From contig CAWETI010000002.1 of assembly GCA_963812015.1 (NCBI GenBank), positions 896,001 to 960,000 on the forward strand: DNA of 64,000 nt, read 5' to 3'. Position numbers and translations under genes: made by a program. The notes under the pieces are model-generated. The model was given only the letters and a program-made list of their open reading frames with translations, made no database searches and had not been told where the DNA came from. Shown piece by piece: positions 13,616 to 15,473 of this stretch (within the stretch, counting starts at the first letter, position 1; each line of letters opens with the position of its first letter). This stretch comes from an uncultured delta proteobacterium. GTDB lineage: Bacteria > Desulfobacterota > Desulfobaccia > Desulfobaccales > 0-14-0-80-60-11.

Positions 13616-13814
13616 GAAACGCCATCTCAAGTGCAGTACAAGTATTGGGGGCCTTGCTGCACCCCTGCCAGGTCCCGCAGGTTAAGACTGACTGGCATGG
13701 TTGATGAACCGGAAACAAGTCTTAATCCCTTCCCCTGGTGGGAGGGGATGGGGAAATAACTGCTGGGAAAAAAATTCTGTATCCCCCCCCGCACCCTAAC
13801 CCTTGTATGTTAAA

Positions 13815-14010
13815 GGGAACCGGTACATAGTTTGGTCATTAAAGAACCAGGCCATCAGGAGCAGTACTGCTCCTGATGGCGGCGTGGCAGGCCGTCCTAA
13901 CCCTTGGTCCTTCAAGACCGCGGTGAGAGCGTGGCCGCCACGTCGCCCTGGCATTAACCCGAACAGTCGCCCGGGCTTTGAAGCCCGTATCTTGCAAGGA
14001 CGGGAGGCCA
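13815..14010 (+). ncRNA. Predicted IS110 bridge RNA (ends approximate)
   Basis: 5' hairpin 13851-13880 (perfect 30-bp palindrome); target-binding loop 13881-13944; donor-binding loop 13958-14004; loop guides match the flank and the element ends. Confidence 0.85.
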
Positions 14011-14019
14011 AGGCTTTTT

Positions 14020-14973
14020 ATGCACCCTGAATCCGTATTTGTCGGCATTGACGTCTCTAAGGACCAGTTAGACATCGCCATCCGGCCAGGAGAGGTCCGG
14101 TTCCGGGAGTCCAACAACGACTCCGGTATCCAGGCCCTCGTTGTCCGACTTTTGTCCCTTAAGCCCCAGCTCATCCTCCTGGAAGCCACCGGTGGCTATG
14201 AGATCCTGGCCGCCGCCGCCTTGCGGCAGGCTGACCTGCCGGCCCACATTATTAACCCTCGTCAGGTGCGAGACTTTGCCCGGTCCTCCGGCAGATTGGC
14301 CAAAACCGATAAGATCGACGCCGCGGTTCTGGCTCATTTTGCCGAGGCGCTGAAACCGTCCCTCCGACCCTGGCCAGATGAGCATCAACAGGAATTGGCC
14401 GCCCTCATGAGCCGGCGCCGGCAACTGGTGGAGATGCTGGTCATGGAGAAAAATCGCCTATCCATGACTTTCTCCCCACGGGTCCGCAGAAGCCTGCAAA
14501 CCAACCTCCAATCCCTTAAAGAACAACTTAAGGAGTTGGAGCAAGATTTGGACGACTTCATCCGTCAAAGCCCCATCTGGCTGGAGAAGGATCAACTCCT
14601 CCAGAGCGTCCCGGGAGTCGGCCCCTTAACCTCCCAAAGCCTGTTAGCCTGGGTGCCGGAGTTAGGCACCTTAAATCGCAAGAAGATCGCCGCCCTGGTG
14701 GGGTTGGCCCCCTTTAACCGCGATAGCGGTCAGATGCGGGGCAAGCGCACCGTTTGGGGTGGCCGGGCCCGGGTGCGGCTTCCCTTGTATATGGCTACGT
14801 TGGCCGCCTGCCGGGTCAATCCGGCCATCCGTGCCTTCTATCTCCGGTTGCTGGCAATGGGTAAGAGCAAGAAATTGGCTCTTACCGCCTGTATGCGTAA
14901 ACTGTTAACCATCCTTAATGCCATACTTAAACAACAGCAACCCTGGTGCCCCCTTGCACCAGTTAACCCTTGA
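14020..14973 (+). CDS. IS110 family transposase/bridge recombinase, 317 aa
   Basis: RuvC DEDD residues (GIDVSK, LEATG, KTDKIDA), SVPGVG, and catalytic Ser in [10 protein letters not shown]. Confidence 0.97.
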
Positions 14974-15473
14974 CATCTAACACAGTCGCTCCTCCCTCAA
15001 GGGGGTGTATTATATTGACTTTTTTCGAGGTCATCAGGGTGAGAACAGGAAACGTTCCGGCAAGATCCGGTGATCCGGGGAAAGCCGCAGCGGTATTCGT
15101 TAGCCAAAGAGAACAATCCTGCAACTTTCTGGAGTTCAGGTATGCATGAGACCTAAAGAGTCGTAGAGAACCTTTCCGGATTTGGTTCAAATCACATGAG
15201 GGACTTGAAAGGAGCTAAGGAAGTATAGTGGGTTACTTGTCAATATTAGAAAATTCTTGGAAAAGGCAAATAATTGACGATATGATCCGCATAACGAAAC
15301 GGGTGCTTGGTGGGGGGATTTGCAGATTTGACTGGTTAAAGAACATCAAAAAAGCCGGAAGAGAATATATCTTAAAAATTTCTTCTCATATTACCTCTGG
15401 ATGGAGAGGTTGTCCGGTAAACTCTTGACCATTACGGTTGATTGCCGGGCTGCAATTTAATCAGGTAATATTC

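What the first reader, a model, noticed from the sequence alone, without database searches (positions are those of the whole stretch)
13795..14995. Intact IS110 bridge-recombinase element with a fully readable bridge RNA
Seen: the 216-nt left end folds into a 5' hairpin (13851-13880) and two internal-loop hairpins. Loop 1 (stems 13881-13888/13937-13944 and 13906-13909/13916-13919) has CCTAACCCT (13896-13904), identical 9/9 to the left flank plus core (13795-13803), and GAGAG (13925-13929), complementary to CT-CTC. Loop 2 (stems 13958-13961/14001-14004 and 13972-13977/13982-13987) has ACAGTCGC (13963-13970), identical to the right end (14982-14989), and TGCAAG (13993-13998), complementary to CT-TGTA with one G-T wobble. 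Known: this is the target-loop/donor-loop layout of IS621 bridge RNAs, and the donor ACAGTCG-CT-TGTAT closely resembles that of IS621. The DEDD residues and catalytic Ser are intact. Inference: an active, reprogrammable 317-aa RNA-guided recombinase with predicted target CCTAACC-CT-CT(C).
Basis: partly seen in the sequence, partly recalled or inferred. Interest (0 to 1): 0.9.

Follow-up and report, generated by a model that had tools for sequence, protein, structure and literature searches.

The report
IS110 bridge-recombinase element, eight copies
This is an intact mobile element of the known IS110 family whose own small RNA reads out both the DNA site it inserts into and its own ends, a well-supported but ordinary new example of the RNA-guided "bridge" recombinases described in 2024.

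Summary
Window 13804-14990 is an 1187-bp IS110-group insertion sequence, 1188 bp with one CT core copy. It has a 216-nt left end, a 317-aa DEDD/Ser recombinase gene (14020-14973) and a 17-nt right end.

The genome holds eight intact copies differing by 0-4 bases. Seven nucleotides plus the CT core match the left target guide at 7/7 in 3 copies and 6/7 in 5. CT-CTC or CT-CTT follows the right end in 7 of 8 copies.

In 45 distinct relatives at 61% protein identity or less, the same loops covary with their own flanks (0 of 10,000 permutations). The helices carry compensatory changes in 43 of 48 pairs. The circle junction would form TTGACA-17-TATGTT.

The window copy itself sits at a half-matched site: left target 7/7, right target 3/6. 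It lies in a hairpin downstream of a flp pilin gene.

Verdict: a new member of a known kind (IS621-type bridge recombinase). "Active" and "reprogrammable" remain inferences, because I have no RNA, circle or assay data. The scan's earlier notes held nothing on this element.

The parts
13795..13801 (+). Left target (LT) of this copy, CCTAACC; chromosomal flank, not part of the element
   Evidence: Identical 7/7 to the left target guide. The flanks of all eight copies are compared.
13802..13803 (+). CT core, left junction copy
   Evidence: CT stands at both junctions in 8 of 8 copies.
13804..14019 (+). Left end (216 nt), starting with the right donor TGTAT; encodes the bridge RNA
   Evidence: Identity among the eight copies begins here. 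The empty paralog C3:1520286-1520502 matches the window up to 13802 and resumes at 14991.
13806..13811 (+). -10 hexamer TATGTT of the promoter that forms only across the circle junction
   Evidence: Read. The pattern [TA]G-TATN[AT]T directly follows the core in 23 of 24 relatives with both ends placed. The role of a junction promoter is described in Durrant 2024.
13851..13880 (+). 5' stem-loop (13 bp, loop GUAC)
   Evidence: In helix 1, 13 of 13 pairs show changes on both sides among relatives.
13881..13944 (+). Target-binding loop module (64 nt): outer stems 13881-13888/13937-13944 and 13890-13894/13932-13936 with bulged A13889, and inner hairpin 13905-13909/13916-13920
   Evidence: Helices 2-4 are 90-98% paired in relatives. 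The IS621 target-binding loop is 65 nt.
13896..13904 (+). Left target guide (LTG), CCUAACC plus core CU
   Evidence: Matches LT plus core at 7/7 in 3 copies and 6/7 in 5 copies. The homologous loop covaries with LT in relatives.
13922..13929 (+). Right target guide (RTG), GGUGAG plus core-binding AG; pairs with the top strand CT-CTCACC
   Evidence: The right target is CTCCCC in 5 copies (5/6), CTCCCT in 1 (4/6), CTTCGG in 1 (2/6) and CCTCCC in this copy (3/6). In relatives the predicted right target matches at a mean of 4.47 of 5.
13930..13931 (+). Candidate handshake guide of the target loop (CG), complementary to donor positions 6-7 (CG)
   Evidence: Read. C faces G at left-donor position 7 in 35 of 36 relatives, but there is no variation, so this is uninformative. 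The concept comes from Hiraizumi 2024.
13945..14014 (+). Donor-binding loop module (70 nt): stems 13945-13952/14007-14014 and 13958-13961/14001-14004, and inner hairpin 13972-13977/13982-13987
   Evidence: Helices 5-8 are 75-93% paired in relatives.
13963..13970 (+). Left donor guide (LDG), ACAGUCG plus the first core base C
   Evidence: Identical to 14982-14989. The IS621 LDG is likewise 8 nt, A123-C130. In relatives the 7-nt guide occurs exactly, followed by CT, downstream of the ORF in 33 of 45.
13989..13998 (+). Right donor guide (RDG), AUCUU-GCAAG; CAAG pairs with CT-TG and G13994 faces T
   Evidence: The same discontiguous pattern, including a non-canonical G-T pair (G161-dT12), is seen in the IS621 structure.
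13999..13999 (+). Candidate handshake guide of the donor loop (G), complementary to target position 7 (C)
   Evidence: This base is Watson-Crick complementary to LTG position 7 in 38 of 43 distinct guide sets, with 0 of 10,000 permutations as good.
14020..14973 (+). Recombinase gene, 317 aa: RuvC-like DEDD domain (D11, E55, D97, D100) and Tnp domain (S236-G237)
   Evidence: These residues are invariant in 60-61 of 61 distinct relatives. The ORF is intact in 8 of 8 copies.
14970..14975 (+). -35 hexamer TTGACA, overlapping the stop codon
   Evidence: The spacer across the junction is 13 + 2 + 2 = 17 nt. TTGA[CT] lies within 16 nt before the left donor in 21 of 24 relatives.
14974..14990 (+). Right end (17 nt): left donor ACAGTCG (14982-14988) and the right CT core copy (14989-14990)
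   Evidence: A short right end with a long left end is the IS110-group arrangement.
14991..15005 (+). Right target of this copy (CCTCCC...) inside a terminator-like hairpin downstream of the flp pilin gene; flank, not part of the element
   Evidence: Terminator-like hairpins at 14987-15007. The flank is paralogous to two other regions downstream of flp genes.

Best explanation
Window 13804-14990 is one of eight copies of an IS110-group insertion sequence that moves by IS621-type, bridge-RNA-guided recombination.

Inferred cycle:
1. The element excises as a circle.
2. The joined right and left ends form the sigma-70 promoter TTGACA-17 nt-TATGTT.
3. That promoter transcribes the left end from about 13818 into an RNA of roughly 200 nt, made of a 5' stem-loop and two internal-loop modules.
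4. The 317-aa DEDD/Ser recombinase binds this RNA.
5. The donor loop holds the circle junction ACAGTCG-CT-TGTAT. ACAGUCGC pairs with the bottom strand, and AU..GCAAG pairs with the top strand including a G-T pair.
6. The target loop holds a chromosomal site CCTAACC-CT-CTC(N)CC. CCUAACCCU pairs with the bottom strand, and GGUGAGAG pairs with the top strand.
7. The two duplexes are exchanged at the CT core. The product reads LT-CT-TGTAT...ACAGTCG-CT-RT.

The preferred targets are the 5' arm of a small family of REP-like hairpins (CCCCTCACCCT[A/G]ACC-CT-CTCCCCC-loop-GGGGGAGAGGGG). The window copy is a secondary insertion at a similar hairpin downstream of a flp pilin gene, which matches only the left half of the guide.

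Shown here: the anatomy, copy number, boundaries, guide-flank matches, covariation in relatives, and conserved catalytic residues.

Inferred from IS621: the circle, transcription, RNA binding, the chemistry and reprogrammability.
For: (1) Protein. PF01548 scores 2.8e-25 and PF02371 scores 7.5e-18. ISCro4 (9t56) scores 9.9e-38 and IS621 (8wt6) 8.5e-37 over residues 2-309. D11, E55, D97, D100 and S236-G237 align with the IS621 catalytic residues named in Hiraizumi 2024 (passages). They are invariant in 60 of 60 relatives whose alignment reaches D11, and in 61 of 61 for the other five residues.

(2) Mobility record. Eight full copies differ by 0-4 bases, all with open reading frames. A ninth place holds only the first 57 nt of the left end. 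An empty paralogous site matches the flanks up to 13802 and from 14991.

(3) Guides against this genome's flanks. LT matches the LTG at 7/7 in 3 copies and 6/7 in 5. CT stands at both junctions in 8 of 8. RT begins CTC in 6 copies and CTT in 1. No unoccupied CCTAACCCTCTC is left in the genome, and 5 unoccupied CCTGACCCTCTC sites remain.

(4) Structure. A covariance model of the proposed structure finds a match directly upstream of the ORF in 60 of 80 relatives' loci at E <= 0.022, and 54 of these span the full length. On that alignment 88.8% of cells pair, against 32-45% when partners are slid, and 43 of 48 pairs show double changes.

(5) Guide-flank covariation in relatives at 61% protein identity or less. 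The RT predicted from the RTG matches the real RT at a mean of 4.47 of 5, against 1.49 permuted. LT matches at 4.56 of 7, against 2.51 permuted. In both tests 0 of 10,000 permutations did as well, with n = 32 of 45 distinct guide sets each. The donor-loop handshake base is complementary to target position 7 in 38 of 43 (0 of 10,000).

(6) Junction promoter. The hexamers are conserved in 21 of 24 relatives. No sigma-70-like site was found in the integrated context 13600-15200.

(7) The layout rules (LTG and LDG pair with the bottom strand, RTG and RDG with the top strand, core included, junction promoter, REP targets) are as described in Durrant 2024 (passages).
Against: - There is no RNA evidence, because no listed sequencing run is on record as RNA. 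Contigs cannot show a circle junction.
- The window copy's own right flank matches the RTG at only 3 of 6. Another copy (C3:812636) matches at 2 of 6.
- The RTG has a U opposite C at the fourth RT base of the commonest target. The LTG has an A where 3 of 8 occupied sites and all 5 free sites have G.
- The window copy carries a private base at 14780, giving L254. The other seven copies, and the contigs of all four metagenome runs, have C there, giving P254. The position is variable in relatives.
- The alignment used for pair counts was fitted to the model's structure, so it leans towards that structure.
- For 13 of the 45 relatives' guide sets my simple motif rules placed no end, and those sets were left out of the covariation tests.
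Confidence: 0.9

Rival explanations
1. The element is a genuine IS110-group insertion sequence with a bridge RNA, but it is no longer mobile in this genome.
For: No unoccupied CCTAACCCTCTC site remains. The window copy has a private substitution. No circle or RNA data exist. One copy has already decayed to a 57-nt remnant.
Against: All 8 ORFs are intact and the copies differ by at most 4 bases, so spread was recent. Five G-variant sites are still free, and 3 such sites are already occupied. Position 254 is variable in relatives, where S, R, A, T and Q all occur. Contigs from a different study show the element beside a flank that only resembles this genome's copy at C2:867158, which suggests a related strain.
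Confidence: 0.25
2. The structured left end is only a 5' untranslated leader that controls recombinase translation, and the protein alone chooses the target. The loop-flank identities would then be leftovers of the element's own ends.
For: The donor-loop module ends 5 nt before the ATG and covers the likely ribosome-binding region (GGGAGG at 14002-14007). The free RNA's minimum-free-energy fold pairs the two target guides with each other.
Against: The target loops differ between relatives and track each relative's own flanks on both sides of the element. A leader has no reason to do that. The LTG matches chromosomal DNA outside the element (13795-13801). Direct experiments on the homologous IS621 show that the RNA is the specificity determinant (Durrant 2024, passages).
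Confidence: 0.03
3. The matches between loops and flanks are chance in a G+C-rich, repeat-rich region.
For: Both 8-9-mers occur once more elsewhere in the window. In each case 4 of 100 shuffles reached 3 matches.
Against: The two motifs sit exactly in the two internal loops and exactly at the two junctions. Eight copies agree. No permutation out of 10,000 reached the observed guide-flank agreement in relatives.
Confidence: 0.01

Closest known systems
IS621 of Escherichia coli (bridge recombinase; Durrant et al. 2024, PMC11208160; Hiraizumi et al. 2024, PMC11208158; PDB 8wt6)
   Same: - Domain order is RuvC-DEDD, coiled coil, Tnp-Ser, aligned over residues 4-309 at E 8.5e-37.
- The left end encodes an RNA with a 5' stem-loop, a target loop (64 nt here, 65 nt in IS621) and a donor loop (70 nt here, 68 nt in IS621).
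- The LTG is 9 nt and the LDG is 8 nt.
- The RDG is discontiguous and includes a G-T pair.
- The core is CT.
- A promoter forms across the circle junction.
- The targets are REP-like hairpins.
   Different: - The protein is 317 aa, against 326 aa.
- The RTG is longer here: 6 nt beyond the core are predicted, and 5 of 5 match in 20 of 32 relatives. IS621 has 4 paired bases.
- The target sequence differs: CCTAACC-CT-CTC..., against ATCAGGC-CT-AC.
- No linker is drawn between the two modules.
- Nothing here has been tested experimentally.
ISCro4 transposase (PDB 9t56, name as given by the entry)
   Same: It is the best-scoring solved relative, at E 9.9e-38 over residues 2-309. The catalytic motifs are the same.
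   Different: It is a distant orthologue. I saw only the PDB listing and the alignment, and nothing about its RNA or target.
ISPpu9 and ISPpu10 of Pseudomonas putida (IS110 family, REP-targeting; PMC12288879 and bioRxiv 10.64898/2026.03.19.712850, abstracts seen in the listing)
   Same: They are multi-copy IS110-family elements, all inserted into copies of one repeated extragenic palindrome.
   Different: The hosts and target repeats differ. I did not compare sequences.
IS1111 group (seekRNA/bridge RNA encoded in the right end)
   Same: Same DEDD/Ser recombinase family.
   Different: In IS1111 elements the long non-coding end and the RNA lie downstream of the gene, and the elements carry subterminal inverted repeats of 7-17 bp. 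Here the right end is 17 nt and the RNA lies upstream.

Membership tests
IS110 family, IS110 group (bridge recombinase elements) | N-terminal RuvC-like DEDD domain with all four acidic residues | tested here: met
   PF01548 scores 2.8e-25. D11, E55, D97 and D100 align with IS621 D11, E60, D102 and D105. They are invariant in 60-61 of 61 relatives.
IS110 family, IS110 group (bridge recombinase elements) | C-terminal Tnp domain with the catalytic serine followed by glycine | tested here: met
   PF02371 scores 7.5e-18. S236-G237 align with IS621 S241-G242 and are present in 61 of 61 relatives.
IS110 family, IS110 group (bridge recombinase elements) | Long left end and short right end (the IS1111 group has the reverse) | tested here: met
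   The left end is 216 nt and the right end 17 nt. The criterion comes from Durrant 2024.
IS110 family, IS110 group (bridge recombinase elements) | A conserved core dinucleotide at both junctions, with no longer target duplication | tested here: met
   CT stands at both junctions in 8 of 8 copies. The empty paralog fixes the ends at 13802/14991, although that paralog differs by a 2-nt indel right at the site.
IS110 family, IS110 group (bridge recombinase elements) | Left-end RNA with a 5' stem-loop and two internal-loop modules | tested here: met
   Fold z = -3.93. The covariance model finds hits in 60 of 80 relatives' loci. 88.8% of cells pair and 43 of 48 pairs carry compensatory changes.
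IS110 family, IS110 group (bridge recombinase elements) | The first loop matches the target (LTG same sense as LT plus core, RTG antisense to core plus RT) | tested here: met
   In this genome LT matches at 6-7 of 7 in 8 of 8 copies, and RT at 4 of 6 or better in 6 of 8. Relatives covary, with 0 of 10,000 permutations as good.
IS110 family, IS110 group (bridge recombinase elements) | The second loop matches the element's own ends (LDG = LD plus core C; RDG antisense to core plus RD) | tested here: met
   8/8 identity between 13963-13970 and 14982-14989. GCAAG/CTTGT pair with one G-T. The LD is exact and followed by CT in 33 of 45 relatives.
IS110 family, IS110 group (bridge recombinase elements) | A sigma-70 promoter reconstituted across the circle junction | tested here: met
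   At sequence level only. TTGACA (14970-14975), a 17-nt spacer and TATGTT (13806-13811). Both hexamer patterns are present in 21 of 24 relatives. No such site exists in the integrated context.
IS110 family, IS110 group (bridge recombinase elements) | The RNA is made and bound by the recombinase | not testable with these tools
   No run listed as RNA holds the stretch.
IS110 family, IS110 group (bridge recombinase elements) | Circular intermediate and RNA-dependent recombination | not testable with these tools
   Only contigs were available. The indirect evidence is eight near-identical copies.
IS1111 group | Long right end carrying the RNA; subterminal inverted repeats of 7-17 bp | tested here: not met
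   The right end is 17 nt and the RNA lies upstream. I did not run a formal search for inverted repeats.

The most novel reading that the evidence does not exclude
The nine insertion events in this genome are a natural record of half-site-guided insertion. Two of the eight full copies match the left target guide perfectly (7/7 plus core) but match the right target guide at only 3/6 and 2/6: the window copy and C3:812636. The same flp-downstream hairpin was also hit a second time in a paralog, the remnant at C2:1263944. This would mean that in vivo the left half of the target loop is sufficient for insertion by this orthologue. It would give independent natural support to the 'half-match' model proposed for IS621 in 2026 (bioRxiv 10.64898/2026.08.31.748434, abstract read). 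It would also tie the element to disruption of pilin-gene terminators.
Probability: 0.35. Interest if true: 0.4.

Novelty: new member of a known kind. Interest (0 to 1): 0.3.

Why it matters
This is a compact (317 aa) natural bridge recombinase. Its four guides, core, donor, target family and junction promoter can all be read from sequence, and the guides are cross-checked by eight genomic copies. That makes it a ready candidate orthologue for bench characterisation alongside IS621.

Its closest relatives among 185,579 species genomes reach only 61% protein identity. The genome also offers a small natural data set on mismatch tolerance: A versus G at target position 4, a U-C mismatch in the RTG, and two half-matched insertions.

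It does not change the understanding of the family.

Tried and rejected
- Rfam 15 over 13000-16000 at E <= 1 gave only two sub-threshold chance hits, sX15 (23.8 bits) and isrK (18.7 bits). No bridge-RNA family matched.
- First translations at 14021 were out of frame. I corrected the start to 14020.
- Sequencing runs: no RNA holder is listed. Laying contigs of four metagenome runs from three studies showed the element joined to flanks of other copies of this genome. In a different study it showed a flank that only resembles the copy at C2:867158.
- The single 'skips 1267' joint (13749 to 15017, one contig with 5 other letters) most likely belongs to one of the two paralogous flp-downstream regions and is not an excision product. 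I do not use it.
- No circle junction could be sought in contigs.
- The IS621 donor sequence is not printed in the main text of either Nature paper: 0 occurrences of my search strings. Supplementary tables were not opened.
- Earlier notes of this scan: three notes on this genome concern other loci, and a look-up by sequence found nothing.
- I did not run the large protein searches, a structure prediction or a complex prediction. The family assignment did not need them.
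Full report
**What is there**

- CCTAACCCT stands at 13795-13803 and again at 13896-13904. The identity runs on to 11 of 11.
- GAGAG stands at 13925-13929.
- ACAGTCGC stands at 13963-13970 and at 14982-14989.
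- TGCAAG at 13993-13998 is the complement of CTTGTA at 13802-13807, with one G-T pair.

In the 64-kb window the 9-mer occurs three times against 0.49 expected, and the 8-mer three times against 0.99 expected.

The RNA fold of 13804-14020 has -94.5 kcal/mol, z = -3.93, and none of 200 shuffles folds as well.

The gene is 14020-14973 and encodes 317 aa. My first coordinates were one base off. It carries Pfam DEDD_Tnp_IS110 (2.8e-25) and Transposase_20 (7.5e-18). Its best solved relatives are the ISCro4 and IS621 transposases, at 9.9e-38 and 8.5e-37.

**Boundaries and copies**

The window's genome has 3.96 Mb in 6 contigs. It holds eight full copies at 99-100% identity. They differ from the window copy by 0-4 bases, and all have open reading frames.

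Identity between copies begins at TGTAT (13804) and ends at ACAGTCG-CT (14990). CT precedes the left end in all eight.

The window copy's flank is itself a repeated region that follows flp-type pilin genes, and it has two paralogs.
- One paralog (C3:1520286-1520502) is empty. It matches the window up to 13802 and again from 14991, with a 2-nt indel exactly at the site.
- The other (C2, from 1263936) has CCTAACC-CT followed by only the first 57 nt of the left end. These are fused to the right flank at a CATCAGG that occurs both at 13853-13859 and at 15032-15038. This is a decayed second insertion at the same kind of site.

**Do the loops read the flanks?**

The rules come from Durrant 2024 (passages seen). 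LTG and LDG are the same sense as the top strand of the left halves. RTG and RDG are antisense to the right halves. The core is included in all four pairings.

Under these rules the loops predict target CCTAACC-CT-CTCACC and donor ACAGTCG-CT-TGTAT.

The eight copies give the following.
- LT is CCTAACC in 3, CCTGACC in 3, CCAAACC in 1 and ACTAACC in 1. That is 7/7 or 6/7 in every copy.
- RT is CTCCCC in 5 (5/6), CTCCCT in 1 (4/6), CTTCGG in 1 (2/6) and CCTCCC in the window copy (3/6).

The window copy itself sits at a site that fits only the left half.

The usual target is the 5' arm of a REP-like hairpin, CCCCTCACCCT[A/G]ACC-CT-CTCCCCC-loop-GGGGGAGAGGGG. The pattern CTCTCCC..GGGAGAG is found 37 times counting both strands. 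Because the hairpin is palindromic, this corresponds to somewhat under 20 loci.

No unoccupied CCTAACCCTCTC is left in the genome. Five unoccupied CCTGACCCTCTC sites remain, all in such hairpins.

**Relatives**

A scan of one genome per species found 493 relatives. The best 80 loci reach 47-61% protein identity.

I built a covariance model from the window RNA, with the two guide loops left unpaired. It matches on the coding strand directly upstream of the gene in 60 of 80 loci at E <= 0.022, and 54 of these matches span the full length.

On the resulting alignment of 54 distinct rows:
- 88.8% of cells form pairs, against 32-45% when partners are slid by 1-3 columns;
- 43 of 48 pairs show changes on both sides;
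- all five measures exceed 500 of 500 shuffles.

This alignment was fitted to the model, which favours the structure.

**Covariation between guides and flanks**

I then read the four loops of each relative from the alignment and located the ends by simple rules. The right end was taken as the LDG 7-mer downstream of the gene. The left end was taken as a [CT]T[TA]GT[AG]T motif upstream.

Among the 45 distinct guide sets from relatives (46 counting the window's own, which I left out), the LDG 7-mer occurs exactly and is followed by CT in 33.

- RT test. It used the 32 sets with such an end and a readable RTG. The RT predicted from the RTG agrees with the real flank at a mean of 4.47 of 5 positions. 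It is 5/5 in 20 sets and 4/5 or better in 29. The permuted mean is 1.49 and the permuted maximum 2.47.
- LT test. It used the 32 sets with a left motif. The mean is 4.56 of 7, against 2.51 permuted.
- In both tests 0 of 10,000 permutations reached the observed value.
- Thirteen sets were left out of each test because an end was not placed. In some families my motif rule misplaces the core by one base, which lowers the LT figure.

The base after the core-binding AG of the RDG is the donor-loop handshake guide of Hiraizumi 2024. It is Watson-Crick complementary to target position 7 in 38 of 43 sets, with 0 of 10,000 permutations as good. In the window it is G13999 against C.

The corresponding base in the target loop, C13930, faces G at donor position 7. 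That pair does not vary among relatives, so it proves nothing.

**Protein**

D11, E55, D97, D100 and S236-G237 align with IS621 D11, E60, D102, D105 and S241-G242 (alignment, residue roles, numbering). They are invariant in 60-61 of 61 distinct relatives.

The window copy alone has T at 14780, giving L254. The other seven copies, and the contigs of all four metagenome runs laid, have C, giving P254. The position is variable in relatives, so I expect no effect.

**Promoter**

TTGACA at 14970-14975 overlaps the stop codon. After a circle forms, 13 nt of right end, the CT core and TG would place it 17 nt from TATGTT at 13806-13811.

Both hexamer patterns are present at the same places in 21 of 24 relatives for which both ends were placed. 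No sigma-70-like site is found in the integrated arrangement 13600-15200.

This is the junction promoter described for IS621 and its relatives. A start about 7 nt after the -10 hexamer would give an RNA of roughly 200 nt ending near 14014. That is inference.

**Comparison with the known system**

Everything tested fits the IS110 group and, within it, the IS621 layout.
- The left end is long and the right end short.
- The target loop is 64 nt, against 65 nt in IS621. The donor loop is 70 nt, against 68 nt.
- The LTG is 9 nt and the LDG 8 nt.
- The RDG is discontiguous and has a G-T pair like G161-dT12 of IS621.
- The core is CT.
- The targets are REP-type hairpins.

The differences are of degree: a shorter protein, a longer RTG, a different target, and only 61% or lower identity to any relative found.

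Durrant 2024 already predicted bridge RNAs in 85.7% of IS110-group elements. This is therefore a new member of a known kind.

**What is not shown**

No RNA run holds the stretch. The metagenome runs are kept as contigs, which cannot show a circle. No assay exists. 'Active' rests on eight near-identical intact copies, and 'reprogrammable' rests on homology with IS621.

The contigs do show the element in runs of three studies, joined to flanks of several of this genome's copies. In one other study the flank only resembles the copy at C2:867158. One of these runs may be the sample the genome was assembled from.

**The most novel reading**

Two of the eight copies, plus the remnant, lie at sites that fit the left target guide perfectly but the right target guide poorly. 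This resembles the 'half-match' insertions reported for IS621 in a 2026 preprint, of which I read the abstract only. A plasmid assay with this copy's own target would test it.

Noticed in passing
G000:C2:1263936-1264046 (locus L009, about 1598-1708): A solo remnant of the element. CCTAACC-CT is followed by the first 57 nt of the left end, identical to the window, and these are fused to the right-flank sequence at a 7-bp CATCAGG. That 7-mer occurs both inside the left end (window 13853-13859) and in the flank (window 15032-15038). It looks like a microhomology deletion that removed the rest of the element. The surrounding flank is only about 87% identical to the window's.
   Followed up: partly
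window 13640-13802 and 14991-15100; L009 about 1441-1760; L011 about 1441-1720: A conserved non-coding region of about 270 bp follows flp-type pilin genes in three places of the genome, at 78-87% identity. It contains a long conserved hairpin (GGTTAAGAC...GTCTTAATCC) and a terminator-like hairpin. Rfam gave nothing at E <= 1 apart from two chance-level hits. Its function is unknown. The insertion sequence splits it in the window.
   Followed up: partly
window 13451-13615: A 54-aa Flp-family pilin ORF lies directly upstream of the insertion. The two paralogous regions also follow such ORFs, and in L011 there are two in tandem. The insertion separates the window's pilin gene from its terminator-like hairpin (14987-15007).
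   Followed up: no
genome-wide, e.g. G000:C2:853127, C3:44444, C3:1035232: A small REP-like family, CCCCTCACCCT[A/G]ACCCTCTCCCCC-loop-GGGGGAGAGGGG. Its hairpin core pattern matches 37 times over both strands, which is somewhat under 20 loci. At least six members are occupied by the element and five matching G-variant sites are still empty.
   Followed up: partly
G000:C2:800196-800630, C3:450120-450446, C3:891573-891899: Three further, more distant DEDD_Tnp_IS110 genes (50.2, 33.2 and 33.2 bits). These are other IS110-family elements in the same genome. I did not examine them for an RNA.
   Followed up: no
window 14780: The window copy has T (Leu254). The other seven copies, and the contigs of all four metagenome runs laid, have C (Pro254).
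   Followed up: yes
window 13905-13906 versus 13804-13805: The identity between the target loop and the left junction continues 2 nt past the core (TG), into the first bases of the inner stem, making 11/11. The relatives' loops do not keep this, so it is probably coincidence.
   Followed up: partly
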